Shown piece by piece: positions 3,126 through 32,083 of a stretch of DNA of 63,635 bases. Below the pieces are notes generated by a model. It was not told the DNA's origin. It saw only the letters and a list, made by a program, of their open reading frames with translations, and did not search any database. The stretch covers positions 1-63,635 of IMG/VR virus record IMGVR_UViG_3300017734_000002; one strand, given 5' to 3'. The stretch is from a virus (lineage: Duplodnaviria > Caudoviricetes). A program made the position numbers and the translations under genes. The first letter of the stretch is position 1. The number at the start of each line of letters is the position of its first letter.

Positions 3126-3857
3126 TTAAAGGGTTTTATTAATAAAATATTGTGTAGGATCAAAGCCTTCAGACTTATAAAATAATTCATAAGCCTGCAC
3201 TGCTCTTTCGACTTTGTCCTTACCACGTTCGTAAAATTGCGGTGAGCAGTCAAATATACCTATTTGGCTCGTGTTTTTATCAATGGCAATAAATACCATT
3301 TCATAACCAAATAGTTTACTATAAATATAAGCTTGTGAGTCGTAATTGTATTTAGATGCTGAATATCTAAACTTATTAAGATCCGCTGTTGTCTTCAAAT
3401 CAACTACTAGCTTTTCTTCGTGGTTTATAATATCAGCTTTACCTTTCCACATACAACCTTCAAGCTCTGTAATGCCAGGTTTTTCATACTCGTTTGTTGA
3501 GTTTCTAATTAAGTCGTGACATATTTTATTAGCTAACATTTTATCTGTTAGTTTTTCTATGTTATCAACTTCATGCTGTAGTAAACATAGTTCACCACCT
3601 GACATCTCTTTATATGCCTTTGTGTTTCTAGTTGTAGCTTCTATAATCTTAAACTTTTTAAGTTTATCAGGTTCTAGAATAGCTGTGTGGAAATAACCAC
3701 CAACTAAAAACGCGGGTCTAGCTTCAGAAGCTTTACCAAGGTTTAAAGGATTTGTAAGTAAAGTACTAATGTCTGAGTTACTAAGGTATTTCTTACCGAA
3801 ATCACCATAGTAGTTCTCATCATTACGTAGCTTTTCAATTACAGTTTTTTTGTTCAT
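3126..3857 (-). CDS. PD-(D/E)XK exonuclease (RecE/DUF3799-like)
   Basis: KGKADI..VVDLKTT..YNYDSQAYIY motifs; adjacent to ERF. Confidence 0.8.
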   Translation of the reverse strand: MNKKTVIEKLRNDENYYGDFGKKYLSNSDISTLLTNPLNLGKASEARPAFLVGGYFHTAILEPDKLKKFKIIEATTRNTKAYKEMSGGELCLLQHEVDNIEKLTDKMLANKICHDLIRNSTNEYEKPGITELEGCMWKGKADIINHEEKLVVDLKTTADLNKFRYSASKYNYDSQAYIYSKLFGYEMVFIAIDKNTSQIGIFDCSPQFYERGKDKVERAVQAYELFYKSEGFDPTQYFINKTL

Positions 3858-3858
3858 A

Positions 3859-4407
3859 TTATAACGTGTTTAACGCTCCTTCTATTTCTTGAGATAGAGC
3901 ATATTTAGCTTTTATAGCTGCTACTTTACCACCTGCTGTTACATATTGAACCGCTTTTTCATAAGCTGGATCTTTTTTAGAGGTTAAAGTTGGTTTTTTT
4001 GGCTCAAACTTTTTCTTGCCGTGATCATTCGTGGCATCACTGTCCGCTGTATCATCAATTAAAAACAAATTACCTAACGCGTACTTTTTTGCATACGAAG
4101 ACGCTGAGCCAAATTGTTGAGGCACGTTCATACCTTTTTGATTTAGATCAACACCAACGATTGCAATAGCGTGTATAGCATTTTCGCCATCAGATACAGT
4201 TGCCGTTGTTTGCATTATAGGCATATTGTGGTTGTCGATTAGTTCTTCATTAATCGTTACTGATACTCCTAACTCTAATAGAAAGGGTTTTGTTGCTTCG
4301 AGAATGTCTTCGGCTGATCTGAAGTAGTATTTGCCGAATGAATTAAATCTTGATTTTTTAGATTTAAATTTTGTCTGGATCGTTGCCAGTTTTTCATTTA
4401 TGGTCAT
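3859..4407 (-). CDS. ERF-family single-strand annealing protein
   Basis: YYFRSAEDIL and QQFGSASSYAKKYAL..LF.I.D..DSD ERF signature. Confidence 0.88.
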   Translation of the reverse strand: MTINEKLATIQTKFKSKKSRFNSFGKYYFRSAEDILEATKPFLLELGVSVTINEELIDNHNMPIMQTTATVSDGENAIHAIAIVGVDLNQKGMNVPQQFGSASSYAKKYALGNLFLIDDTADSDATNDHGKKKFEPKKPTLTSKKDPAYEKAVQYVTAGGKVAAIKAKYALSQEIEGALNTL

Positions 4408-4480: not shown

Positions 4481-5239
4481 TTACAGGTAATCAAGCACTT
4501 GCGAGTGATCTACACTATCTATTAATTTATCTACAGCTTGCTTTTTTAATTGTGAAACTCTAACATAAGAACTACTACCTTTTATGCCTAGTTTAGAAGC
4601 TATGTCTTTAGCTGAATGCTTGTCACAGTCTAAACCATAACTTAATCTTAGTATATTATATTCAAGTTCCGATAAATGTTTCTTTAACAAGCCTGTTAAG
4701 TATATGTTTAATATTTCTTGATTGTATGGCTCAGATTTATCAGGTATATTATACATAGAGTTTTCATCCATGTTTGGCTTATCATCTATACTTAAAAATA
4801 TACTGTTAAAAAACATAGCAACCATCTTTTCATCTTTACCAAAGTTTTTACGTATTTCATTTAGCTTATGCTCTGGTATACGTATATCACCTCTGTTAAT
4901 ATCAATAGATCTTCTTATTGCTCCTTTGATACGTTTACTAAAAAATGATTTTAATGTTTTTTCATAGTCTTCTGATTTTTCTAAAGTTGGCCAATCTAAC
5001 CTATCTACAGCTCTGGTTAAACCGCCATTACCTGACTGTATTAAATCCATTATTGTCTGCACACCTGAAGCCTGTTGGCTAGTTGAAAACTTTCTAGCTA
5101 AAGATTCTACTAAAGGCATAAACTTAGTTATTAATTGTTCTCTATTACAGTCTTTCCAAGACAAGTGTTCTATTCTAACTAAAGCCTGTTTTAAATCTTC
5201 TTTATACCTTATATAATTCTGTATGTTATATTTCTTCAT
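4481..5239 (-). CDS. Phage sigma-70 family RNA polymerase sigma factor
   Basis: Region 2 (LVESLARKF..DLIQSGNGGLTRAVDR..RIKGAI..IRIP) and region 4 HTH (ILRLSYGL..SAKDIASKLG..VRVSQL). Confidence 0.88.
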   Translation of the reverse strand: MKKYNIQNYIRYKEDLKQALVRIEHLSWKDCNREQLITKFMPLVESLARKFSTSQQASGVQTIMDLIQSGNGGLTRAVDRLDWPTLEKSEDYEKTLKSFFSKRIKGAIRRSIDINRGDIRIPEHKLNEIRKNFGKDEKMVAMFFNSIFLSIDDKPNMDENSMYNIPDKSEPYNQEILNIYLTGLLKKHLSELEYNILRLSYGLDCDKHSAKDIASKLGIKGSSSYVRVSQLKKQAVDKLIDSVDHSQVLDYL

Positions 5240-7965: not shown

Positions 7966-8208
7966 TTATTTAAAGTTTTTAAGTTTATTTTCTATTATTT
8001 TTATTTTATCTTGCAATTCTTTGCATTTTTCATAATTTTCTTTTTGAAGATTATAGTCTAGCGCAGTCATAGTTTGAGCTAATTCTGTTAATAGATCTTG
8101 TTCTTCATCTTCGTTAAAAGTGTTTGTTACAATAGCTCCATCAAGTATACCGTCTAACACTAGTTCTGCTACTCTTTGAGCTATTTTTTCAATTTCGTCG
8201 TTTGTCAT
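7966..8208 (-). CDS. Hypothetical protein with UVR-like coiled-coil C-terminus
   Basis: ENYEKCKELQDKI motif; start moved to MTNDEI because the promoter motif overlaps the upstream ATG. Confidence 0.6.
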   Translation of the reverse strand: MTNDEIEKIAQRVAELVLDGILDGAIVTNTFNEDEEQDLLTELAQTMTALDYNLQKENYEKCKELQDKIKIIENKLKNFK

Positions 8209-8212
8209 ATTG

Positions 8213-8245
8213 TTATTATCCAAATGTATTCGTATTTAGTTTGTA
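8213..8245 (-). promoter_or_regulatory. Early promoter-like motif copy 1 (TACAAACTAAATACGA-N8-GGATAATA)
   Basis: One of seven near-identical bipartite motifs, all co-oriented with downstream genes. Confidence 0.75.
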
Positions 8246-8692
8246 TTAGTATCTAGTTTCACCATTTGCAAAATCAGTGTACTCCATGGGGTCTTTTTCG
8301 TCCATATATCTAGATATTATTTTTTCTGGTTTTAGTACAAATACATTTCTACTAGCATATTGGTCATAACAACTAACCCATATATCTTTTTTACCTGTAA
8401 ATATAATATAAGTATATTGGTGATCTATTCTATCTTGTGATTGATATAAGTAGCAACTGTCATAGTACATATCGTGTACAAGTTTGGCAGCTAAGGCGCT
8501 ACCGTCTTGTCTACTGTTAGTATGAAGCCAGTTTGCTATTTCTACACCTTGCCACTCAGGATAACCATCGTGATGTAAATACATGTTTACATAGCTTTTG
8601 TCAGCAAAGAAATCAGGAGGTGCTGCAAAGCCTAACTCGTGATGTTCTGCGTGTTCTCGGTCTACGACCATTGTTAAGTTTCTTGTGCTCAT
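8246..8692 (-). CDS. Conserved phage hypothetical protein
   Basis: MSTR...YLHHDGYP motif typical of phage early proteins. Confidence 0.7.
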   Translation of the reverse strand: MSTRNLTMVVDREHAEHHELGFAAPPDFFADKSYVNMYLHHDGYPEWQGVEIANWLHTNSRQDGSALAAKLVHDMYYDSCYLYQSQDRIDHQYTYIIFTGKKDIWVSCYDQYASRNVFVLKPEKIISRYMDEKDPMEYTDFANGETRY

Positions 8693-8705
8693 AATTTATA
8701 ATTTT

Positions 8706-8781
8706 TGGTGCGCAGGGTGGATTCGAACCACCGACCTCTAGCTTATGAGGCTAGCGAGCTGGCCAACTGCTCTACCGCGCA
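8706..8781 (-). tRNA. tRNA with CAT anticodon (Met or Ile2)
   Basis: Cloverleaf: TGCGCGG/CTGCGCA acceptor, GAGC/GCTC D stem, CTAGC-CTCATAA-GCTAG anticodon arm, GGTGG-TTCGAAT-CCACC T arm. Confidence 0.9.
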
Positions 8782-8793
8782 ATGTGTATAGCA

Positions 8794-9057
8794 TTAATCA
8801 AGTAATACCATGTATGCTTTAGGATTATTAACTTTAAACCAGGTTAAAGCTAAATCAAATTTATTAACCGTTTGTTTAGTAGGCTTTAGTCCCATGCCCC
8901 ATATGTGGTTACAACCCATAATAAAATCATATATAGATAATTCTTTAGCGTTTAACTCATATGTATCGCCACTAAAAGGATTTCTTACAGTATCACCTTT
9001 AGTATATACTGTACCGTTAAACCATTTAGGTATTTTTTGTTCTTTAGTTTCCGACAT
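8794..9057 (-). CDS. Hypothetical protein
   Basis: 87-aa ORF ending WFKVNNPKAYMVLLD, co-oriented with neighbours. Confidence 0.7.
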   Translation of the reverse strand: MSETKEQKIPKWFNGTVYTKGDTVRNPFSGDTYELNAKELSIYDFIMGCNHIWGMGLKPTKQTVNKFDLALTWFKVNNPKAYMVLLD

Positions 9058-9179
9058 TTTTTCCTAGTATTAATGGTGATTCGTCCTTGTTTGATGTTAC
9101 AAAGTAACAAGCTTCACCTTCGTTTATATTTATTTCTTTGTTTTTAAATCTTTTTGGATAGTTATCCAATACATATTGT

Positions 9180-9629
9180 TTAATTTTTTGATTTTTCGTA
9201 CTCATAACCTTCTTCTATTAATTCGTTTTCAACTTCTTCTTTTATATCATTTACATAAGAGTCATATACTTCTGTAACCGCATCTTGTACATAATACTCT
9301 TCAAGATCTTCTACATATATAAGTTCATTATAATCTGTCATAGCTTCTACTAGTTTTTCTGATAAATCATTATCATAGTAGTGTACATCTTCACTTATAC
9401 ATACATTTCTACCATCACCACTTGTTGTAACCCATACTTCATAGCCATCTGCTGTGGTTTCACAGTATATGCTATAGTCTGGTGTATTGTTCCAGTTGTC
9501 TGTTAGTTCAAAATCGTAGTGTTTTTGTATTACTTTTAAAGCTTCATCGTGTTCAATATCAAACTTTACACCTTTATCTTCTAATCTTTTGTCGATTAGT
9601 TCTTCTGTTATTAATTTTTTAGTTACCAT
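9180..9629 (-). CDS. Acidic hypothetical protein
   Basis: 149-aa D/E-rich ORF. Confidence 0.7.
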   Translation of the reverse strand: MVTKKLITEELIDKRLEDKGVKFDIEHDEALKVIQKHYDFELTDNWNNTPDYSIYCETTADGYEVWVTTSGDGRNVCISEDVHYYDNDLSEKLVEAMTDYNELIYVEDLEEYYVQDAVTEVYDSYVNDIKEEVENELIEEGYEYEKSKN

Positions 9630-9897
9630 ATTCTATTGTTTTTTCATTAGTTACCATCCATTCACAGTCATTTACCTTATGACCCGCACCATATAAGAAT
9701 GACTCACAAGACTCTGTATCAGGATTCCATTTGTTTTCTTTTGTACATAACACGCTAATGTCATATCTATATATTTTGCCATCTGTAAAATCTAGTAAAA
9801 ATATATACTTAGCTGACTCATCAGCGTACACTGTTTCTTTACATTCACCTAGCATTTCTTCTTGCATCTCTTGCCATTTTCTCACTGAATCACTCAT
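9619..9897 (-). CDS. Hypothetical protein
   Basis: 92-aa ORF overlapping its neighbours in the operon. Confidence 0.65.
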   Translation of the reverse strand: MSDSVRKWQEMQEEMLGECKETVYADESAKYIFLLDFTDGKIYRYDISVLCTKENKWNPDTESCESFLYGAGHKVNDCEWMVTNEKTIEYGN

Positions 9898-10138
9898 AAT
9901 CTTTAGATATTAAAATGTTATCACCGTATTTAAAATCCCACGCAGTAACTTTAATTAACTCAATATCAGAAAATGTATATAACGTGCTAATGTCACTGAT
10001 TTTTAAGTTAGAATAAAAATATTCATTGCTTAGTGTTTTAATAACACTTAGTACACTGCCTTCATAGTTAGCTGTGTTTGCTAGCAAAGCCTCTTTAACC
10101 TCAGGCTTTAGTCTTTCGTAAATTGATAGTCTGTTCAT
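9890..10138 (-). CDS. Hypothetical protein
   Basis: 82-aa ORF directly downstream of promoter copy 2. Confidence 0.65.
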   Translation of the reverse strand: MNRLSIYERLKPEVKEALLANTANYEGSVLSVIKTLSNEYFYSNLKISDISTLYTFSDIELIKVTAWDFKYGDNILISKDYE

Positions 10139-10153
10139 GTTTATTATTTAATT

Positions 10154-10186
10154 ATATTATCCAATTATATTCGTATTTAGTATGTA
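10154..10186 (-). promoter_or_regulatory. Early promoter-like motif copy 2
   Basis: atattatcc-aattatat-tcgtatttagtatgta on + strand. Confidence 0.75.
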
Positions 10187-10249
10187 AACAGTAGGCATTG
10201 CGACTCGGTAACGCTGCACCCTTCTTGTCCAGGCTTGGTACCTACTGTT
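10187..10249 (-). ncRNA. Hairpin RNA module
   Basis: Closing stem aacagtagg/cctactgtt, GC-rich interior, no ORF. Confidence 0.45.
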
Positions 10250-10255
10250 AATTAG

Positions 10256-10381
10256 TGGACGTGGCAGGAATCGAACCCGCGTCTTCAAGGGGTAATAACT
10301 ATTGAGTGTTTTTAGTGCTGCCGCACTTGCATTATCACTCGCATTACTACTCGGTACCTTAAGCTAACCAATTTCACGCCC
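10256..10381 (-). ncRNA. Mini tmRNA-like RNA (tRNA-like domain only, 126 nt)
   Basis: GGGCGTG/CACGTCC acceptor with G3:U70 and A73, stemless D-loop with GG, AGAC linker, GCGGG-TTCGATT-CCTGC T arm, single long hairpin in place of the pseudoknots and mRNA domain. Confidence 0.75.
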
Positions 10382-10385
10382 ATAA

Positions 10386-10445
10386 AGCAGCAATAAAATG
10401 CACGTCATTTACCGGTGTGTACCCTGACTTATACTTACTACTGCT
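10386..10445 (-). ncRNA. Hairpin RNA module
   Basis: Minus strand AGCAGTAGTAA/TTATTGCTGCT stem (G:U pairs define the strand) and inner GTCA/TGAC. Confidence 0.45.
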
Positions 10446-10502
10446 AAACCGCTTCACAACCGTGCACTACTATTTCAAGCTGTGGTTGTTCTTCACGTAT
10501 TT

Positions 10503-10598
10503 GTAACTAGTGAGGATTCGAACCTCATACCCGTCGGTAGCCTAAGCGCGGTGCACCACTGTCTTTTGACCGGTGCGCGTCTTACCTGACCTAGTTCC
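10503..10598 (-). ncRNA. Anticodon-less tRNA-like RNA
   Basis: AACTAG/CTAGTT acceptor-like stem, GTC-AGGTAA-GAC D-like arm, TGAGG-TTCGAAT-CCTCA T arm. Confidence 0.6.
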
Positions 10599-10599
10599 C

Positions 10600-10678
10600 G
10601 CTAGCAATTCACTTATGTGTTAAAGTTACAAGGTGTCTGTTCTCGCCTACTTTAACCTAATTAAGCTACTCGTCTAGC
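10600..10678 (-). ncRNA. Long hairpin RNA module
   Basis: Nested stems GCTAG/CTAGC, CTTA/TAAG, GTTAAAGT/ACTTTAAC. Confidence 0.4.
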
Positions 10679-10866
10679 TATTTACGCCGCCAAGCTCTGT
10701 GCACTGATGCACTTACTTCTTGGCTAACGATTTGTATTGTATTACCTGTTTTGTGCTCGATTATAGGTACATAAGAGTACGTTTGAGTTGTACTACATGA
10801 AACACATGTTTTATATCCTAATTCTAAACGCACAGGGTGCACGTTGTTACCACATTTACAATACAT
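10678..10866 (-). CDS. DksA/TraR-like C4 zinc-finger protein
   Basis: CKCG..VHPVRL.LGYKTCVSC spacing resembles the DksA/TraR zinc finger. Confidence 0.55.
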   Translation of the reverse strand: MYCKCGNNVHPVRLELGYKTCVSCSTTQTYSYVPIIEHKTGNTIQIVSQEVSASVHRAWRRK

Positions 10867-10893
10867 AGTTATTTATTTTTATTTGTTACATAT

Positions 10894-10926
10894 ATATTAT
10901 CCAGAGTTATTCGTATTTAGTTTGTA
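10894..10926 (-). promoter_or_regulatory. Early promoter-like motif copy 3
   Basis: atattatcc-agagttat-tcgtatttagtttgta; would drive the Zn-finger gene and the ncRNA array. Confidence 0.75.
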
Positions 10927-11092
10927 ATAATTTATTTAACGCTACATTAATAACATATTCTCTCATTTCCATGTAGTCATCGCCGTCAAGTGGTTGGTCA
11001 GCTAGTTGCCAATCAACACTATCTTCAATGATTTCTTTCATGTGATCTGCTACACCTTGTGCAATCAAATCTAGTTCTTTCATTTTACTCAT
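10907..11092 (-). CDS. Hypothetical protein
   Basis: 61-aa ORF whose C-terminus (LQTKYE) is encoded by the promoter motif. Confidence 0.6.
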   Translation of the reverse strand: MSKMKELDLIAQGVADHMKEIIEDSVDWQLADQPLDGDDYMEMREYVINVALNKLLQTKYE

Positions 11093-11298
11093 TTTCCATA
11101 TATTTTATTTAACACTCTATCAATTACTGTTAGAGCTAAGTCACTATCATAAGCAATAAACTTTGATAATATATTAGTATAATCTATTCTATTTGCTATT
11201 GAATCACTAGTAAGTAAGTAAACAAGTGTTTTTATTACGTGGTTTTTATTACCATTTATCCATGTTTCTACATAATATGTAGCTTTTTCTGTTACCAT
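11089..11298 (-). CDS. Hypothetical protein
   Basis: 69-aa ORF with ATGA overlap. Confidence 0.6.
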   Translation of the reverse strand: MVTEKATYYVETWINGNKNHVIKTLVYLLTSDSIANRIDYTNILSKFIAYDSDLALTVIDRVLNKIYGK

Positions 11299-11435
11299 AT
11301 TATTTAAATTTATTAGCTACTTCGTATATTTCTTCTTTGTCATCTGAATCCATTCCATGTGTTTGTTGAGCGTACATACGTAGCACATAGTGTACAAAAG
11401 TGCAGTCGTTATCTGTTAGTTTTATATTTCTCATA

Positions 11436-11840
11436 TTAGTACATTGTTAAGTTTCTCATGTTATAATTTCTTTTGCAAAAGTCTATTATATACATAAGTC
11501 TCGCAAGCGGATCATGTATTAATTCTCTAGCATAACATATAGCTTTTGAAGTTTTTAGTTTACCGTCTTGTCCTATAACTGTCCATCTTTCTTCTCGCTT
11601 ATATACTTTGTTTAGTTGATATATTCTATCGCTTGAGTTACATCTTCTAACATAACCTGTTGTATAAGACGCTAGTTGATCGCCATTAGGTAACACAAAT
11701 TGTCTTGTGCCATTTTTCTTCTGTCTTTCAGTAGTCATTTCTTTAATATTATACTCGATAAACATACGTTTAGCGAACATATCTACTAGCTCTATACGTC
11801 TCTGTCTCCAGTCCATATTTTCTTGTTCTAAATCTCTCAT
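11436..11840 (-). CDS. Hypothetical protein
   Basis: Likely start MRDLEQ at 11840 (ATGA overlap with the upstream ORF). Confidence 0.65.
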   Translation of the reverse strand: MRDLEQENMDWRQRRIELVDMFAKRMFIEYNIKEMTTERQKKNGTRQFVLPNGDQLASYTTGYVRRCNSSDRIYQLNKVYKREERWTVIGQDGKLKTSKAICYARELIHDPLARLMYIIDFCKRNYNMRNLTMY

Positions 11841-12073
11841 AGGGTTTTTATTTGCTTTAATTGTTCTGTTGTAAATTTCTTTGATGTTTCTCGCCACATA
11901 CGGTTGTGAGTGAACTTTCTTGCTTTGCTGAATGTAGATTTCTGCTTGTATCGTACTCGATTGTACTCTGCATCGGTGAGTCCACTACACGTGCCGTTAT
12001 GGAGAACTAGACGTCTATGCCCATCTGCTCTGATTTTACGTTGTGCTTTTGCATAAGCGCACAATTCTTTCAT
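11837..12073 (-). CDS. Basic hypothetical protein
   Basis: Likely start MKELC; K/R-rich. Confidence 0.6.
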   Translation of the reverse strand: MKELCAYAKAQRKIRADGHRRLVLHNGTCSGLTDAEYNRVRYKQKSTFSKARKFTHNRMWRETSKKFTTEQLKQIKTL

Positions 12074-12081
12074 ATTAGTTA

Positions 12082-12267
12082 CTACCATGGTAATATAGTT
12101 TTTTCTATATAAGTTAAACCTTTGTAGTTAAACCATTGTGATTTACCTTGTTTTTCGTTTTGAAAAATAAAGCCGAATGAGTTAGGTATATTGCCTATTG
12201 AATAACCTTTGTAAGTTGTTTTGTTAAGGCGAATGTGATTGTTAGGTAAGAATTTAATTGATTGCAT
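12082..12267 (-). CDS. Hypothetical protein
   Basis: 61-aa ORF after promoter copy 4, A-rich leader. Confidence 0.6.
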   Translation of the reverse strand: MQSIKFLPNNHIRLNKTTYKGYSIGNIPNSFGFIFQNEKQGKSQWFNYKGLTYIEKTILPW

Positions 12268-12292
12268 AGTATATTATTTATGTTTTACATTG

Positions 12293-12325
12293 TTATTATC
12301 CAAGAGTAATCGTATTTAGTTTGTA
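12293..12325 (-). promoter_or_regulatory. Early promoter-like motif copy 4
   Basis: ttattatcc-aagagtaa-tcgtatttagtttgta. Confidence 0.75.
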
Positions 12326-12547
12326 TTATAACAAAGCTTTGTGAGCATTTTTACTTGCATAATTACCTAAAGCTTGACGCCATTCCCACTCGCGCTTGCG
12401 ATATTCATAGTCAGTACACCATTTCTTCATAGCTTTACTGTTAGTATTAGGATTGAAGTTAGCTTCAAACTCATCAATTTGTTGAAGTTTTTTAGTGATT
12501 AGACCTTTAACGTCTAGTTCTTTGAATTTAGCGTCTATAAATTGCAT
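12326..12547 (-). CDS. Hypothetical protein
   Basis: 73-aa ORF whose stop abuts the promoter motif. Confidence 0.6.
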   Translation of the reverse strand: MQFIDAKFKELDVKGLITKKLQQIDEFEANFNPNTNSKAMKKWCTDYEYRKREWEWRQALGNYASKNAHKALL

Positions 12548-12818
12548 AGTCTTTTAAAGTTTAAATAGTTAGTTAATAATGTTTCTTGTTGGTCTGAAGT
12601 ACACGTAGAGAATCCGAACTCGCCGAATACTTCTTGTGCCATTTTATCTAAATCTTGCATAGTATTATATTTTAGTAGAAGTCATCGTATATATCTCTAA
12701 CTTTAGACTTCTGTTCATCAGTTAGTTTAGTATAGTGCTTGTCGAATAGTCGCCAAGATATTTTTAGGAGAGTGTAAGAGTAATTGCACATAGTATTATT
12801 ATTTAATTAGTTAGTATT

Positions 12819-13004
12819 TTATTTTATTATCCGACTTTTGTCGTATTTAGTTTGTAATGGTTTTTCATAGTTTTCATCAGTGAGAGTCGCGAAGAGTAGT
12901 TCATCAAAGTAAACATCACTCGTCACAAATCTCTGCTGTAATTTACTGTAATATCCTCTATCCATATATTCCGAAACTTGTTGGTGCGCCAACTGTAAAC
13001 ACAT
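12819..13004 (-). CDS. Hypothetical protein
   Basis: 61-aa ORF running through promoter copy 5. Confidence 0.5.
   Translation of the reverse strand: MCLQLAHQQVSEYMDRGYYSKLQQRFVTSDVYFDELLFATLTDENYEKPLQTKYDKSRIIK
12824..12856 (-). promoter_or_regulatory. Early promoter-like motif copy 5
   Basis: ttattatcc-gacttttg-tcgtatttagtttgta. Confidence 0.75.
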
Positions 13005-13130
13005 GTATTAGTAGTGCAGCACATGAAAATATTATAAATGTTAGTGTTGCGTAAGATAGTACTTTAGTGATTACGTCAATCACTTTATTGTGATGGAATT
13101 TTGCCATAGTTATTTAGTTTTAAAGATTAG

Positions 13131-13171
13131 TAGACATGGTGAGAATCGAACTCACATTAACCATTATGTCT
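13131..13171 (-). ncRNA. tRNA minihelix-like RNA (acceptor plus T arm only)
   Basis: AGACAT/ATGTCT stem, short GG-containing linker, GTGAG-TTCGATT-CTCAC T arm, discriminator A. Confidence 0.55.
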
Positions 13172-13173
13172 TA

Positions 13174-13238
13174 CTCACGTGTATTTACCCTGCCCAGTTT
13201 TCCCGTTGCCTGAAGGTTCGGACAGTCACCTGTGTGAG
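13174..13238 (-). ncRNA. Hairpin RNA module directly upstream of the minihelix
   Basis: CTCAC/GTGAG and CTGTCC/GGGCAG stems in a GC-rich intergenic island. Confidence 0.4.
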
Positions 13239-13262
13239 ATTTTATTTGTAAAGAGTAGTTTA

Positions 13263-13490
13263 CTATTGTTCAACTACTTCACGTACACTTACTGGAACAC
13301 TTGTTGATGAAGTGTAAGATTTGTATTTGATAAAGCAAGGCATGTTTTCAAGTTTATCTTTCATAACTTCATACACTTTATCGTGATTGTAAGTGACAGT
13401 TTTGCCATTTTTGAAGTTAACAGTGATTGTTTGATTTTTGCCGATTAAAGATTTTCTGATTACAAATCTTTTAGAAATTAAATTTTGCAT
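13263..13490 (-). CDS. Hypothetical early protein
   Basis: 75-aa ORF immediately after promoter copy 6. Confidence 0.7.
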   Translation of the reverse strand: MQNLISKRFVIRKSLIGKNQTITVNFKNGKTVTYNHDKVYEVMKDKLENMPCFIKYKSYTSSTSVPVSVREVVEQ

Positions 13491-13524
13491 AGTTATTATT
13501 ATTTATTAGTTATTATTTACATTT

Positions 13525-13557
13525 ATATTATCCACAATGGTTCGTATTTAGTTTGTG
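13525..13557 (-). promoter_or_regulatory. Early promoter-like motif copy 6
   Basis: atattatcc-acaatggt-tcgtatttagtttgtg. Confidence 0.75.
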
Positions 13558-13696
13558 AATTTATTTTGAAATCTTTGAAAGTAATATATTTCATTAATTA
13601 ATTCTTGTGGCAACAATTGTTGTAAAAGTATTTCTTGATTTGATTGAAGAAATGTAGTTAATTGCTTTATGTAGTATATTCGTTTCATATTCAATT

Positions 13697-13729
13697 ATAT
13701 TATCCATTTGAGTTCGTATTTACATTGTA
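13697..13729 (-). promoter_or_regulatory. Early promoter-like motif copy 7 (outermost)
   Basis: atattatcc-atttgagt-tcgtatttacattgta. Confidence 0.7.
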
Positions 13730-14832: not shown

Positions 14833-16398
14833 ATGGAATATCACAATCCCAGTGAACTTGTCAAAGAATTATCTTTTGGCGACGAAGCTAAAAACAAAGT
14901 AATACAAGGTGTAGATAAACTAGCAAGAGCAGTTAAGTCTACATTAGGAGCATCAGGTAAGTGTGTAATATTTGAAGATGCCCGTGGAAAACCGGTGATA
15001 ACAAAAGACGGTGTAACCGTTGCGGAAAGCGTAGTCTTACTTGATCCGGTTGAAAACATAGGGGCAACACTTATTAAAGAAGCTGCTAGAAATACAGTGA
15101 AAGAAGCAGGAGACGGTACTACTACAGCTACCGTCCTTGCTGAATCACTACTAAAAGAAGCAACAAAAGCTAAAGAGTCTATAAGAGATACTAAAGCCGG
15201 TATTGCCTCTTATGCTAAAAAAATAAATAAATACCTAGACGATATAGCTATACCTGTAGAAGGTGAGATGTTAAAAGACGTAGCGGCTATATCTTGTAAC
15301 AATGATTTAAAATTAGGTAGTATAATATCTGAAGCCTACGAAAAAGTAGGTAAATCAGGTGTGGTACTGATGGAAGAGTCAGATACAGAAAAGACGTACG
15401 TTGAAATCGTAGATGGAGTACAGTTAGAATCTGGCTTAAAATCACCACACCTTATAACAGATAAAGATAAACAACGAACAGTGCTAGATAAACCACTGGT
15501 TTTAATAGTAGCATCGGAAATACCTAATATACGTAAGATACAACCTATATTAGAACATGTTATAAAAAACAAAAGATCATTACTTATAGTGGCTGAGGTT
15601 AGCACTCAGGTGTCATCTACGTTATTAATGAACAAAGTTAAGGGTAATATCAAGGTAAATTACATTGATCCACCAGGTTTTGGTTCAACAAAGCAAAGTA
15701 CACTTGAAGATTTAGCGTTTTTAACAGGCGCTACAATAATGGATGAGAACTTAGGTGATGATTTAGACCTTATTAACCCTGATTGTTTAGGTGAAGTACA
15801 AAAATCAGTCACAGATGATAAAACTACAGTTCTAACCACAATTGATTTAGGCTTAGATTTGCAAAAAAGGATTGAAAGTGTACAAAAAAGCATAAAAAAA
15901 GAAAAAAATCAGTTTATAAAACGTAGACTAGACCAGAGGTTAGCCATGTTAAGTGGTTCAGTTGGGCTAGTTAGGGTTGGCGCTGACTCAAAAGTGGAGT
16001 TGAAGGAGAAAAAAGACAGAATAGAAGATGCTATTTACGCTGTTAAGGCCGCCTTGAAAGAAGGAATAGTCCCGGGCGGTGGCGTTGCATTAGTCGATGC
16101 TGTCAGAAACAATAAGCCTGTCACCGAAGGTGAAGAAATATTGTCAAAGGCTGTTTTAGCTCCATTTTTTACGATATTAGATAACGCTGGTCTTAAAAAA
16201 ATACCAGTTTTAGAGTTAGAAGATGGCGAGGGAATGGATGTAACTTGTGGTTGCATGAAAAATATGATAGATGCTGGCATTATTGACCCGGTTTTGGTTA
16301 CAAAGTCAGCTTTAAAAAACGCTATATCAGTAGTTTCTACTATAATTTCAGCAGATTGTGTAATTTCTAATATAAGAATTGAAAATGCAAGCAGTTAA
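14833..16398 (+). CDS. groEL: Phage chaperonin GroEL
   Basis: ITKDGVTVA, AGDGTTTATVLA, PPGFG, EKKDRIEDA, EGIVPGGG, GIIDP motifs. Confidence 0.96.
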   Translation: MEYHNPSELVKELSFGDEAKNKVIQGVDKLARAVKSTLGASGKCVIFEDARGKPVITKDGVTVAESVVLLDPVENIGATLIKEAARNTVKEAGDGTTTATVLAESLLKEATKAKESIRDTKAGIASYAKKINKYLDDIAIPVEGEMLKDVAAISCNNDLKLGSIISEAYEKVGKSGVVLMEESDTEKTYVEIVDGVQLESGLKSPHLITDKDKQRTVLDKPLVLIVASEIPNIRKIQPILEHVIKNKRSLLIVAEVSTQVSSTLLMNKVKGNIKVNYIDPPGFGSTKQSTLEDLAFLTGATIMDENLGDDLDLINPDCLGEVQKSVTDDKTTVLTTIDLGLDLQKRIESVQKSIKKEKNQFIKRRLDQRLAMLSGSVGLVRVGADSKVELKEKKDRIEDAIYAVKAALKEGIVPGGGVALVDAVRNNKPVTEGEEILSKAVLAPFFTILDNAGLKKIPVLELEDGEGMDVTCGCMKNMIDAGIIDPVLVTKSALKNAISVVSTIISADCVISNIRIENASS

Positions 16399-31294: not shown

Positions 31295-31490
31295 TATCGG
31301 TAAAGATTATAAAAATGAAGCTATGCACTACTCCGTAGGTCAAGAGGTCTACGGAGGGCATACTATTTGTCATATAACAGAAGAAGACGATAAGTTCAGT
31401 ATATTTATTAAAAAAAATGACGAGGTTTTACCTTGGAAAGACTTTAATAAAAACATGGCTGTAGCTGTTGAGTATAACTTAGAGTATTAA
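31272..31490 (+). CDS. Conserved hypothetical protein
   Basis: 72-aa ORF translationally coupled to its neighbours. Confidence 0.7.
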   Translation: MKLIRKISIGKDYKNEAMHYSVGQEVYGGHTICHITEEDDKFSIFIKKNDEVLPWKDFNKNMAVAVEYNLEY

Positions 31491-32083
31491 TGAAAAGTAT
31501 TTTTGACTTTGTTATAGAACCTATTGGATCTAGATATAACAACACTAAAGAGATTGAAGGTAAAAAACTTATACTAAATACTCAAATATTTACACATCAA
31601 AGCGTTAATAGGCTTGCAAAAGTTAAAAGTGTACCAATAACAGGTGACACTAATATTAAGGTAGGTGATCAAGTTGTTGTTCACCATAACGTTTTTAGAA
31701 GGTTTCATGACATAAGAGGTGTTGAAAAAAACAGCAGAAGTTATATAGATGATAAAAATTATCTATGTTCTTTTGATCAAATATTTTTATATAAAAACAA
31801 AGACGATTGGAAAGCACCTAAAGGCTATTCATTCGTAAAACCTATTGAATCTAATGATATTTTTAATCTTAACAACGAAAAACCTTATATAGGAATATTA
31901 AAGTTCCTAGATGAAACAATAGATAGTGTTTTTGAAAAAGGTGATTTAGTTGGATTTACGCCTAGTAGCGAATATGAATTTGTTATAGATGGTGAAAGAC
32001 TTTATAGAATTAGATCTCAAGCATTAACTATAAAGTATGAATATCAAGGAAACGAAAAAGAATATAATCCAAGCTGGACATAA
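31490..32083 (+). CDS. GroES-like protein (tandem GroES-type folds)
   Basis: AKVKSVP..IKVGDQVVVH and KGDLVGF..EYEFVIDGERLYRI. Confidence 0.6.
   Translation: MKSIFDFVIEPIGSRYNNTKEIEGKKLILNTQIFTHQSVNRLAKVKSVPITGDTNIKVGDQVVVHHNVFRRFHDIRGVEKNSRSYIDDKNYLCSFDQIFLYKNKDDWKAPKGYSFVKPIESNDIFNLNNEKPYIGILKFLDETIDSVFEKGDLVGFTPSSEYEFVIDGERLYRIRSQALTIKYEYQGNEKEYNPSWT

What the first reader, a model, noticed from the sequence alone, without database searches (positions are those of the whole stretch)
10187..10678. 490-nt ORF-free array of six abutting structured RNA modules
In transcript order: hairpin 10600-10678, tRNA-like 10503-10598, hairpin 10456-10489, hairpin 10386-10445, mini-tmRNA 10256-10381, hairpin 10187-10249. 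They are separated by only about 1-13 nt, are GC-richer than flanking DNA and lie between promoter copies 3 and 2. Inference: a polycistronic ncRNA operon in which tRNA-like units recruit host RNase P and 3' processing enzymes to release small RNAs (tRNA punctuation), possibly an RNA-based decoy arsenal against host defence or translation control.
Basis: partly seen in the sequence, partly recalled or inferred. Interest (0 to 1): 0.75.

Follow-up and report, generated by a model that had tools for sequence, protein, structure and literature searches.

The report
Phage small-RNA island with mini-tmRNA
This gene-free stretch of a marine phage genome encodes a string of small folded RNAs, two of them built on tRNA-like frames (one a tag-less miniature of the bacterial ribosome-rescue RNA), and related phages keep the frames constant while freely swapping the hairpins carried inside them.

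Summary
Window 10187-10678 (minus strand) is ORF-free and GC-rich (42-50% against about 30%). It lies between two of seven copies of a phage promoter-like motif and consists of six stem-closed RNA modules.

- **Mini-tmRNA:** 10253-10381 matches Rfam tmRNA end to end at 36.2 bits, below the 47-bit cut-off. It keeps G3:U70 and the T arm, but 44 nt replace the tag and pseudoknot region. This is the "TLD-only" kind published for mycobacteriophage DS6A.
- **Second frame:** 10503-10599 is a tRNA-like frame without an anticodon arm.
- **Relatives:** 24 of 26 relatives found through a neighbouring protein carry one mini-tmRNA, and some have real tRNA-Met or tRNA-Gln in the same array.
- **New point:** three frames (hairpin H1, the tRNA-like frame, the mini-tmRNA) are nearly invariant. 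Their interiors fall into 53 unrelated insert families, five of them shared between frames, and their closing stems covary.
- **Expression:** RNA-library contigs cover the island at higher depth than its flanks, which is weak evidence.

tRNA-type processing and interference with ribosome rescue are inferred, not shown; a decoy role is speculative. This scan has already reported the same kind of island on other phage DNA. I rate it a new variant of a known kind.

The parts
10895..10918 (-). Promoter-like motif copy (AAATACG-N9-GGATAATA) upstream of the 62-aa ORF and the array. It is the presumed start of the transcription unit.
   Evidence: 7 exact copies in the window, all on the minus strand; 0.26 expected by chance.
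10678..10866 (-). 62-aa Cys-rich small ORF immediately upstream. Its stop codon overlaps the first base of H1. It is conserved in relatives as a 189-nt ORF preceding the array.
   Evidence: No Pfam or PHROG family.
10600..10678 (-). H1: hairpin frame with conserved 5' and 3' flanks and a variable inner stem-loop.
   Evidence: Fold z -3.87. 19 distinct H1 sequences whose interiors fall into 11 insert families. RNA contigs replace 10605-10668 with 25 other letters (joints table).
10503..10599 (-). TRL: tRNA-like frame. It has a 6-bp acceptor stem, a GG-containing D-loop analogue, a 4-bp extra hairpin and a canonical 5-bp T arm. A hypervariable stem-loop takes the place of the anticodon arm.
   Evidence: 41 distinct sequences in 18 insert families, with compensatory changes in the extra hairpin and T stem. 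Not called by ARAGORN or by Rfam tRNA at E<=10.
10456..10489 (-). H3: 6-bp stem closing an invariant loop of about 22 nt.
   Evidence: 5 distinct copies with an invariant loop and 2 compensatory stem changes. The fold alone is not significant.
10386..10445 (-). H4: hairpin with a conserved core of about 38 nt and covarying closing stems.
   Evidence: 11 distinct sequences, 7 of 13 pairs compensatory, 97.2% of cells paired against 32-47% when the partners are slid.
10253..10381 (-). Type A mini-tmRNA, consisting of the tRNA-like domain only. It has a 7-bp acceptor stem with G3:U70, discriminator A, a T arm and a D-loop analogue. An insert of about 80 nt, itself a nested frame, replaces the tag and pseudoknot region. 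The gene ends ...CCACUA.
   Evidence: RF00023 at 36.2 bits, E 1.1e-12, model positions 1-374 with 286 positions replaced by 44 nt; 51 distinct type A sequences.
10187..10249 (-). H6: terminal hairpin of the array. Its core recurs in relatives inside the mini-tmRNA frame and inside another nested frame.
10155..10178 (-). Next promoter-like motif copy, in front of the 82-aa gene (9890-10138). It marks the downstream end of the island.
8707..8781 (-). Genuine tRNA-Met of the phage, 1.4 kb downstream in the same early region. In several relatives this tRNA sits directly after the mini-tmRNA.

Best explanation
The stretch is an early-transcribed small-RNA island of the tRNA-island type, in an uncultured marine podophage related to Flavobacterium and Cellulophaga phages.

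It is read from the minus strand as the tail of the transcript of a 62-aa ORF. It consists of six stem-closed RNA modules. Three are constant frames that carry exchangeable payload stem-loops:
- hairpin H1;
- an anticodon-less tRNA-like RNA (TRL);
- a tag-less mini-tmRNA that keeps only the alanine-type tRNA-like domain.

Shown here:
- the RNA-level structure constraint;
- the tmRNA-type ends;
- near-invariance of the frames across many related phages;
- non-homologous swapping of their interiors, and nesting of one motif inside another;
- co-location with real tRNAs in relatives.

Inferred:
1. The two tRNA-like frames are cut out by the host's tRNA maturation enzymes (RNase P at the 5' end; RNase Z or exonucleases plus CCA addition at the 3' end). 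This also frees the hairpins between them and leaves the ORF's mRNA ending in hairpin H1.
2. The mini-tmRNA binds host SmpB, and possibly AlaRS and EF-Tu. Like the TLD-only RNA of mycobacteriophage DS6A, it then competes with host tmRNA and damps or rewires ribosome rescue during infection.
3. The payload hairpins are separate functional units of unknown target. Recombination at the short conserved frame sequences turns them over; the phage encodes an Erf-type annealase and a PDDEXK nuclease.
For: Structure and tmRNA identity:
- Rfam tmRNA matches 10253-10381 over model positions 1-374 (36.2 bits, E 1.1e-12), with 44 nt in place of 286 positions.
- G3:U70 and discriminator A are read directly from the sequence.
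- type A copies in 15 small loci score 31.5-42.6 bits. The type B copy in L003 scores 64.7 bits, above the 47-bit cut-off.
- the published DS6A TLD-only RNA scores 43.2 bits over 83 nt with the same architecture. One search shows it also ends ...CCACUA.
- the type B 5' end shares the GGUUUUGAC D-loop analogue with full-length tmRNAs from two Bacteroidetes MAGs.

Distribution in relatives:
- of 26 relatives found through the neighbouring 82-aa protein (58-93% identity), 17 have type A and 7 have type B. One has none (L021), and one has its flank cut off (L026).
- real tRNA-Met or tRNA-Gln follows the mini-tmRNA by 3-13 nt in several relatives.

Frame constancy against insert diversity:
- 51 distinct type A sequences (68-169 nt), 41 distinct TRL and 19 distinct H1.
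- 110 inserts fall into 53 families, and 5 families are shared between frames.
- the two halves of the window's own mini-tmRNA insert occur free-standing in five other loci, with a different inner insert.

Covariation:
- a closing stem of 5 bp or more in 81% of 48 type A sequences, against 22% of 2000 chimeric controls.
- type B has 99.7% of cells paired, 4 compensatory pairs, and 0 of 500 shuffles reach the covariation score.
- H4 has 7 of 13 compensatory pairs.

Expression and recombination:
- in all four RNA-library runs, summed contig depth over 10210-10880 exceeds the flanks. In X21 it is 27-542 against 5.7 or less; in X19 it is 1327 and 407 at 10612-10879 against 25 or less elsewhere.
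- Erf (PF04404, 112 bits) and a PDDEXK nuclease (PF12684, 80.6 bits) are encoded at 3126-4407.

Literature (passages read): PMC4131195 and PMC11915505 state that DS6A carries a TLD-only, CDS-less tmRNA and that such a molecule inhibits endogenous tmRNA in E. coli.
Against: - No read ends were available, so discrete processed RNAs, RNase P or Z cleavage and aminoacylation are all untested.
- The tool itself warns that contig depth cannot rank parts of a gene. Conserved frames shared by co-occurring strains also inflate summed depth.
- The window's mini-tmRNA is below Rfam's gathering score (36.2 against 47).
- TRL is not recognised as a tRNA by ARAGORN or Rfam. Its position 1:72 is always mismatched.
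- The gene ends in CUA, not CCA, so charging needs 3' repair.
- The whole-array fold is barely better than shuffles (z -1.70).
- Frame invariance is partly a selection effect for loci fetched by exact frame patterns. Only the 26 protein-selected loci are unbiased.
- Host, host SmpB and host tmRNA are unknown.
- Nothing indicates what the payload hairpins bind. No Rfam family matches them at E<=1. No antisense target for two conserved loops was found in the phage or in two Bacteroidetes MAGs.
Confidence: 0.6

Rival explanations
1. RNA payload-display or decoy arsenal. The tRNA-like and tmRNA-like frames are mainly chassis that give stability, processing and access to host tRNA and tmRNA handlers (SmpB, EF-Tu, RNase R, the ribosome). 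The swapped hairpins are the active parts, each a decoy or aptamer for a host defence or RNA-metabolism factor, and they turn over in an arms race.
For: - 53 insert families sit in three nearly invariant frames, 5 of them shared between frames, and some are nested.
- Conserved loops are closed by covarying stems.
- The island lies in the fast-evolving early region.
- Precedent: fragmented tRNA and tmRNA pieces associated with AcrIIIA1 bind RNase R and co-purify with Cas10-Csm (PMC11662646; abstract and passages read).
Against: - No target is known for any payload.
- No Rfam family matches the payloads.
- No complementarity was found.
- The same pattern could arise from recombination among neutral spacer hairpins.
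- One mini-tmRNA per array in 24 of 26 relatives suggests the frame itself is the selected function.
Confidence: 0.2
2. The roughly 490 nt form one large composite structured RNA that acts as a single particle, like the phage-associated GOLLD or ROOL RNAs found next to tRNA islands, rather than as separate small RNAs.
For: - The modules abut with 0-13 nt between them.
- RNA contigs bridge adjacent modules (table 8).
- GOLLD and ROOL are phage RNAs often found near tRNA islands, and GOLLD can contain tRNAs in a linker (bioRxiv 10.1101/2024.12.08.627333, passages read).
Against: - Module number, order and identity differ between close relatives. H3 lies before H1 in L003 and L008 but after TRL in the window, and L004 has only H1, H4 and the mini-tmRNA.
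- The predicted fold of the whole is a chain of local hairpins with weak z.
- No GOLLD or ROOL match appears at permissive thresholds.
Confidence: 0.05
3. The modules are non-functional debris: decaying tRNA and tmRNA pseudogenes plus recombination scars that persist in a tRNA-gene hotspot.
For: - TRL and the type A mini-tmRNA fail the standard detectors.
- The interiors are unrelated between relatives.
- One relative (L021) has only a truncated TRL 5' end and no mini-tmRNA.
Against: - The frames are almost invariant, while the adjacent protein falls to 58% identity.
- Compensatory changes keep the stems paired.
- Alanine identity (G3:U70, A73) is kept in all 13 type B sequences and in the type A sequences.
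- 24 of 26 relatives keep exactly this element.
Confidence: 0.05
4. The tmRNA-like sequence is a phage attachment site (attP) matching the 3' end of a host tmRNA gene, or the hairpins act at the DNA level as an origin or packaging signals.
For: tmRNA and tRNA 3' ends are classic integration sites (general knowledge). One Bacteroidetes MAG contig carries tandem copies (L034).
Against: - Both halves of the tRNA-like domain are present, not just a 3' segment.
- The 22-nt 3' end occurs in only 6 stretches of 185,579 species genomes. All are MAG contigs and none is a host tmRNA gene. The genuine tmRNAs of two of those MAGs have different ends.
- No integrase appeared among the 47 distinct ORFs scanned.
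- Conserved G:U pairs make the structure strand-specific, which points to RNA.
Confidence: 0.03

Closest known systems
TLD-only (CDS-less) tmRNA of Mycobacterium phage DS6A (NC_023744 28478-28560; Hudson, Lau and Williams 2014, PMC4131195; PMC11915505)
   Same: - Phage-encoded.
- Matches both ends of the tmRNA model with the middle deleted.
- 7-bp acceptor stem with G3:U70, a T arm, a short helix 2, and no tag reading frame.
- Scores just under Rfam's cut-off (43.2 bits), like the window copy at 36.2 bits.
- The gene ends ...CCACUA in both.
- The published reading is inhibition of host tmRNA.
   Different: - Here the element belongs to a multi-module array and comes in two alleles: type A, and the more canonical type B.
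- Type A carries a hypervariable payload (30 insert families, total length 68-169 nt) that is exchanged with other frames.
- The phage lineage and host phylum are different.
- Sequences are unrelated outside the universal tmRNA ends.
Bacterial tmRNA (Rfam RF00023)
   Same: The acceptor stem, alanine identity pair, D-loop analogue and T arm. The type B 5' end resembles Bacteroidetes tmRNAs.
   Different: No resume codon or tag ORF and no pseudoknots. About 70-150 nt instead of 370-400 nt, and below the gathering score in the window.
Phage T4 RNA C and RNA D, small stable RNAs of unknown function (PMC9697503 passages read; their position in the T4 tRNA cluster is recalled, not checked)
   Same: Non-tRNA small RNAs encoded by a lytic phage alongside its tRNA genes, with function still unknown.
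   Different: No sequence relation was tested. T4's RNAs are reported as late RNAs. They are not known to be modular frames with swapped inserts.
GOLLD and ROOL large phage RNAs near tRNA islands (bioRxiv 10.1101/2024.12.08.627333)
   Same: Phage or prophage non-coding RNA next to, or containing, tRNAs, of comparable total length (about 500-800 nt).
   Different: No Rfam match. There is no conserved overall architecture, and the array is a variable chain of independent hairpins.
Engineered 'tRNA scaffold' for recombinant RNA expression (recalled: Ponchon and Dardel 2007; not checked here)
   Same: A tRNA body with the anticodon arm replaced by a cargo stem-loop, giving processing and stability. 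This is what TRL and the type A mini-tmRNA look like.
   Different: That scaffold is a laboratory design, whereas this is a natural, evolving system. The function of the cargo here is unknown.

Membership tests
tmRNA (Rfam RF00023) | Score at or above the curated gathering threshold (47 bits) | tested here: not met
   The window copy scores 36.2 bits. Type A copies in relatives score 31.5-42.6 bits. The type B copy in L003 scores 64.7 bits and does pass.
tmRNA (Rfam RF00023) | tRNA-like domain: 7-bp acceptor stem with G3:U70, discriminator A, and a T arm with a GGUUCGAUUCC-type loop | tested here: met
   Alignment; sequences. G:U at pair 3 in 13 of 13 type B sequences.
tmRNA (Rfam RF00023) | mRNA-like domain with a resume codon and a short tag ORF ending in a stop codon | tested here: not met
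   The Ala-rich frame starting at GCA in the window copy has no stop codon inside the RNA (read). The stretch is a hairpin that covaries or is replaced in L005, L037 and L018. The inserts of relatives are unrelated.
tmRNA (Rfam RF00023) | Pseudoknot ring (PK1-PK4) | tested here: not met
   286 model positions are replaced by 44 nt. The shortest type A copies total 68-69 nt.
tmRNA (Rfam RF00023) | Binds SmpB and is charged by AlaRS | not testable with these tools
   No RNA-protein tool was available, and the host is unknown.
Phage TLD-only / CDS-less tmRNA (DS6A type) | Phage-encoded RNA of about 65-150 nt matching both tmRNA ends, with the coding and pseudoknot part absent | tested here: met
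   (window) against (DS6A, 83 nt, 43.2 bits, model 1-374). Folds.
Phage TLD-only / CDS-less tmRNA (DS6A type) | Inhibits endogenous tmRNA when expressed | not testable with these tools
   Reported for DS6A only (PMC11915505 and PMC4131195, passages read).
tRNA (RF00005 / ARAGORN), for module 10503-10599 | Recognised cloverleaf with an anticodon arm and a 7-nt anticodon loop | tested here: not met
   No ARAGORN call. No RF00005 match at E<=10 in the window or at E<=1 in L006 and L011. The anticodon-arm position holds 18 unrelated insert families.
tRNA (RF00005 / ARAGORN), for module 10503-10599 | Acceptor stem stacked on a canonical T arm | tested here: met
   A 6-bp AACUAG/CUAGUU stem plus a 5-bp T stem with a UUCGAAU loop, invariant or compensated in 41 distinct sequences. 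Position 1:72 is always mismatched.
GOLLD / ROOL | Match to the Rfam covariance models | tested here: not met
   No match at gathering or permissive thresholds.
tRNA-punctuated polycistronic RNA (processing model) | Discrete RNA ends at the borders of the tRNA-like units | not testable with these tools
   Only assembled contigs of RNA libraries were available, with no read ends.

The most novel reading that the evidence does not exclude
These phages run a natural RNA display system. Invariant tRNA-like and tmRNA-like chassis are matured and stabilised by host tRNA enzymes and are admitted to SmpB, EF-Tu, RNase R or the ribosome. Each chassis carries an interchangeable payload hairpin that is a decoy or aptamer for a particular host defence or RNA-metabolism factor. 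The payload repertoire is reshuffled between chassis and between phages by Erf-type recombination at the short frame sequences. This would make it an RNA counterpart of protein anti-defence islands.
Probability: 0.2. Interest if true: 0.85.

Novelty: new variant of a known kind. Interest (0 to 1): 0.62.

Why it matters
TLD-only tmRNA has been published for a single mycobacteriophage. Here it is the constant member of an RNA island in a whole group of abundant marine phages: exact frame patterns occur in 50, 20 and 46 stretches of viral contigs. Interference with ribosome rescue may therefore be a common phage strategy that annotation pipelines miss, because these genes fall under Rfam's cut-off and ARAGORN does not call them.

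The frame-plus-swappable-payload organisation is a natural version of the laboratory tRNA scaffold. It points to dozens of small conserved RNA motifs whose partners are unknown. Each motif is short enough for direct pull-down and for deletion or swap experiments, so the question of what phage-encoded small RNAs do becomes testable. The frames may also be useful chassis for expressing RNAs in Bacteroidota.

Tried and rejected
- **Isolate phages:** blastn of the array and its flanks, and of a type B plus tRNA segment, against 50,697 phage records found no homologous array. Only T-arm-sized matches appeared at E >= 0.04, or tRNA-Met matches.
- **First exact pattern:** my first exact viral-contig pattern used the window's own G:U variant of the T stem and found nothing. 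The consensus variant found 50 stretches.
- **Mis-specified TRL pattern:** one TRL pattern had an extra base and found only 4 stretches. It was corrected.
- **Known RNA families:** Rfam at E<=10 on the window region and at E<=1 on 20 small related loci gave only tmRNA and tRNA matches.
- **Scattered repeats (MITE-like):** no module has another copy elsewhere in the 63.6-kb genome.
- **Antisense targets:** the H3 loop (21-mer) and the H4 core (16-mer), with up to 3 mismatches, have no other site in the window. The H3 loop has none in two Bacteroidetes MAGs. Those MAGs may not be the host.
- **Terminators and sigma-70 promoters:** the scan found no more than chance.
- **Neighbouring small proteins:** no Pfam or PHROG family. 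My impression that the 62-aa protein resembles a TraR/DksA-type zinc finger is recalled and unsupported.
- **Tag peptide:** rejected (see membership test).
- **RNA libraries:** bins of the RNA-library runs without cover (for example 8870-9003 and 9674-9807) say nothing.
- **Literature:** searches found no paper describing this array or swapped inserts in tRNA-like frames. Subscription-only papers and supplements were not searchable. Mao et al. 2009 was not read and is cited only through PMC4131195.
Full report
**What the window is.** The window is a whole IMG/VR virus record of 63,635 bp, about 98% complete, with about 31% GC. Its large terminase is 62% identical to that of one uncultured Caudoviricetes record and about 45% identical to those of Flavobacterium phage 'elemo' isolates. 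All 87 matching records are Flavobacterium, Cellulophaga, Tenacibaculum, Maribacter or uncultured phages. The genome encodes primase/helicase, DNA ligase, GroEL and GroES-like proteins, portal, holin and endolysin, as well as Erf plus a PDDEXK nuclease. No integrase appeared among the 47 distinct ORFs scanned. It is most likely a lytic podophage of marine Flavobacteriia.

**The observation.**
- On the minus strand, 10187-10678 has no ORF longer than 43 aa.
- It is 42-50% GC against 25-34% in the flanks.
- It lies between two of seven exact copies of AAATACG-N9-GGATAATA. All seven are on the minus strand of the early region; 0.26 are expected by chance.
- The upstream copy precedes a 62-aa Cys-rich ORF (10678-10866). 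The last base of its stop codon is the first base of hairpin H1, so the array is the tail of that transcription unit.
- Single-sequence folds reproduce the six modules at the stated coordinates. The z-scores range from -3.87 (H1) to -0.53 (H3). The whole region reaches only z -1.70.
- Energy alone would not carry the claim. The comparative data do.

**The mini-tmRNA.**
- Rfam's tmRNA model aligns 10253-10381 from model position 1 to 374 at 36.2 bits and E 1.1e-12. The gathering score is 47. The 286 central positions are replaced by 44 nt.
- The acceptor stem is GGGCGUG/CACGUCC with G3:U70, followed by discriminator A. The T arm and a D-loop analogue are present.
- The only Ala-rich frame has no stop codon within the RNA. 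The stretch is a hairpin that covaries or is replaced in close relatives. There is therefore no tag.
- ARAGORN does not call the element.
- The published TLD-only tmRNA of mycobacteriophage DS6A (PMC4131195, passages read) was located at NC_023744 28478-28560. It scores 43.2 bits, is 83 nt long and has the same architecture.
- PMC11915505 (passage read) states that this DS6A form inhibits endogenous tmRNA when expressed in E. coli.

**Relatives.**
- A search with the neighbouring 82-aa protein gave 26 loci at 58-93% protein identity.
- Of these, 17 carry the same 'type A' frame. Seven carry a 'type B' mini-tmRNA of 78-80 nt.
- Type B passes Rfam's cut-off at 64.7 bits. It shares the GGUUUUGAC D-loop analogue with the full-length tmRNAs of two Bacteroidetes MAGs.
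- One relative has neither type and keeps only a truncated tRNA-like 5' end (L021). One has its flank cut off (L026).
- In several relatives a genuine tRNA-Met or tRNA-Gln follows the mini-tmRNA by 3-13 nt. In the window, tRNA-Met lies 1.4 kb downstream. The island is thus a tRNA-island-type locus.

**Constant frames, swapped interiors.**
- blastn of the array against the relatives showed a mosaic. Modules are present, absent or in another order.
- Exact frame patterns occur in 50 (type A), 20 (type B) and 46 (tRNA-like frame) stretches of IMG/VR contigs. Some of these loci lie on the same contigs, so I count distinct sequences instead: 51 type A (68-169 nt), 13 type B, 41 tRNA-like (TRL) and 19 H1.
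- In each of the three frames the 5' and 3' parts are nearly invariant, while the interior is non-homologous between phages. The 110 interiors fall into 53 families (30 for type A, 18 for TRL, 11 for H1). Five families are shared between different frames.
- The same motifs also occur as free hairpins.
- Motifs nest. The two halves of the window's own mini-tmRNA insert occur free-standing in L012, L017, L023, L030 and L070 around a different inner hairpin. The H6 core occurs inside that motif and inside the type A frame in other phages.
- No module has a second copy elsewhere in this genome, so these are not scattered mobile repeats.

**RNA-level selection.**
- The type A closing stem starts in a fixed register and is 5 bp or longer in 81% of 48 sequences, against 22% of 2000 chimeras. 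The stem sequences are unrelated between families.
- Type B: 22 pairs, 99.7% of cells paired against 43-52% when the partners are slid, 4 compensatory pairs, and 0 of 500 shuffles reach the covariation score.
- H4: 13 pairs, 7 compensatory, 97.2% paired against 32-47% when slid.
- H3: an invariant 21-nt loop with two compensatory stem changes among 5 distinct copies.
- TRL: the extra hairpin changes C-G to U-A or A-U, and the T stem gains a pair on both sides in some members.
- Conserved G:U pairs make the structures specific to the transcribed strand.
- Caveat: loci fetched by exact frame patterns cannot testify to frame invariance. The 26 protein-selected loci can.

**Expression.** Runs holding the region are marine and viral metagenomes, plus six RNA libraries. 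Contigs of four RNA libraries were laid on 8200-12200.
- In all four, summed contig depth is highest over 10210-10880.
- In X21 it is 27, 116, 105, 542 and 65 in successive bins, against 5.7 or less elsewhere.
- In X19 it is 1327 and 407 at 10612-10879, against 25 or less elsewhere.
- In X18 and X20 it is 25-65 there, against 31 or less elsewhere.
- Short RNA contigs bridge H3-H4-mini-tmRNA and H3-TRL.
- Joints show relatives in which H6 is absent or the interior of H1 is replaced.
- These are contigs, not reads. They can show neither ends nor true levels, conserved frames pool several strains, and the tool warns against ranking by depth. I take this only as a hint that the island, and especially the ORF-plus-H1 segment, is abundant as RNA.

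**Mechanism.**
- Shown: a strand-specific array of structured RNA genes. One member belongs to the TLD-only tmRNA kind.
- Inferred from established tRNA and tmRNA biology: an acceptor stem stacked on a T arm is the substrate form for RNase P and the 3' maturation and CCA enzymes. The two frames would then be excised, the hairpins between them released, and the upstream mRNA left ending in H1.
- Inferred from the DS6A precedent: the mini-tmRNA competes for SmpB and damps trans-translation.
- Unknown: what the payload hairpins do. They match no Rfam family, and I found no antisense target.
- The Erf/PDDEXK pair offers a plausible engine for shuffling at the short frame sequences, but this is inference.

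**Rivals.** I consider a payload-display or decoy system (0.2), a single composite RNA (0.05), non-functional debris (0.05), and attP or DNA-level signals (0.03).
- The attP reading is weakened by three points: the full two-sided domain is present; the 3' 22-mer is absent from host genomes (6 stretches, all MAG contigs, in 185,579 species genomes); and no integrase was found.

**Novelty.**
- The TLD-only phage tmRNA is in print for DS6A.
- Small RNAs next to phage tRNA genes are known: T4 RNA C and D (PMC9697503, passages read) and GOLLD/ROOL (bioRxiv 10.1101/2024.12.08.627333, passages read).
- My searches found nothing describing invariant tRNA-like or tmRNA-like frames with swapped, nested payloads in an array.
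- This scan has reported the same kind of island on other phage DNA before (e1-3474621, e1-3509571, e1-6201915). Those are unchecked AI notes. I reached the same reading from my own calls before seeing them, and they are not independent evidence.

**Verdict.** It is a new variant of a known kind, with interest 0.62.

Noticed in passing
window 13128-13262 (-): A second small ORF-free RNA island follows an ORF's stop codon. It holds a hairpin of about 65 nt and then a 45-nt minimal tRNA-like helix: a 6-bp acceptor stem, an AAUGGUUAAU linker like the type A D-loop analogue, and a GUGAG/CUCAC T arm. It ends ACUAAU like the mini-tmRNA but has no G3:U70. Rfam tmRNA touches it partially (12.3 bits).
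   Followed up: partly
window 8214-13721 (-): Seven exact copies of AAATACG-N9-GGATAATA occur, all on the minus strand of the early region and each just upstream of an ORF (0.26 expected). The motif does not look like a sigma-70 or Bacteroidota housekeeping promoter. A sigma-70-like protein (regions 2 and 4, both below the Pfam cut-offs) is encoded at 4481-5239.
   Followed up: partly
window 3126-4407 (-): An Erf-family single-strand annealing protein (PF04404, 112 bits) lies next to a PDDEXK-like nuclease (PF12684, 80.6 bits). This is a phage recombination module that could drive the short-homology shuffling seen in the RNA island.
   Followed up: no
window 14833-16398 (+) and 31490-32083 (+): The phage encodes a GroEL-like chaperonin (phrog_5725, E 6e-132) and a protein matching a phage co-chaperonin GroES family (phrog_13932, E 4e-21).
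   Followed up: no
L034 5388-5647 (56-kb contig of a Bacteroidetes MAG): Two mini-tmRNA frames lie in tandem. The first ends in an encoded CCA (…TCCACCA) instead of CUA; the second is a standard type A copy. The contig may be a phage binned with the MAG.
   Followed up: no
L007 around 690-800: A relative carries a further tRNA-like element elsewhere in its early region, with a GGGUAAC…CUUAUCC acceptor stem, G:U at pair 3, a T arm, and the ending ACUAAU. Some phages of the group therefore have more than one such RNA.
   Followed up: no
window 10253-10255; L151 1581-1583; all type A and B copies: The mini-tmRNA genes of this phage group and the unrelated DS6A gene all continue CUA after the discriminator, not CCA. 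This may be shared ancestry of the motif, a requirement for RNase Z-type 3' processing, or chance.
   Followed up: no
window 10612-10879 (-): In two RNA libraries (X19, X21) the highest contig depth in the 4-kb stretch lies on the 62-aa ORF plus hairpin H1 rather than on the tRNA-like modules. This would fit H1 acting as a protective 3' end for that mRNA.
   Followed up: no
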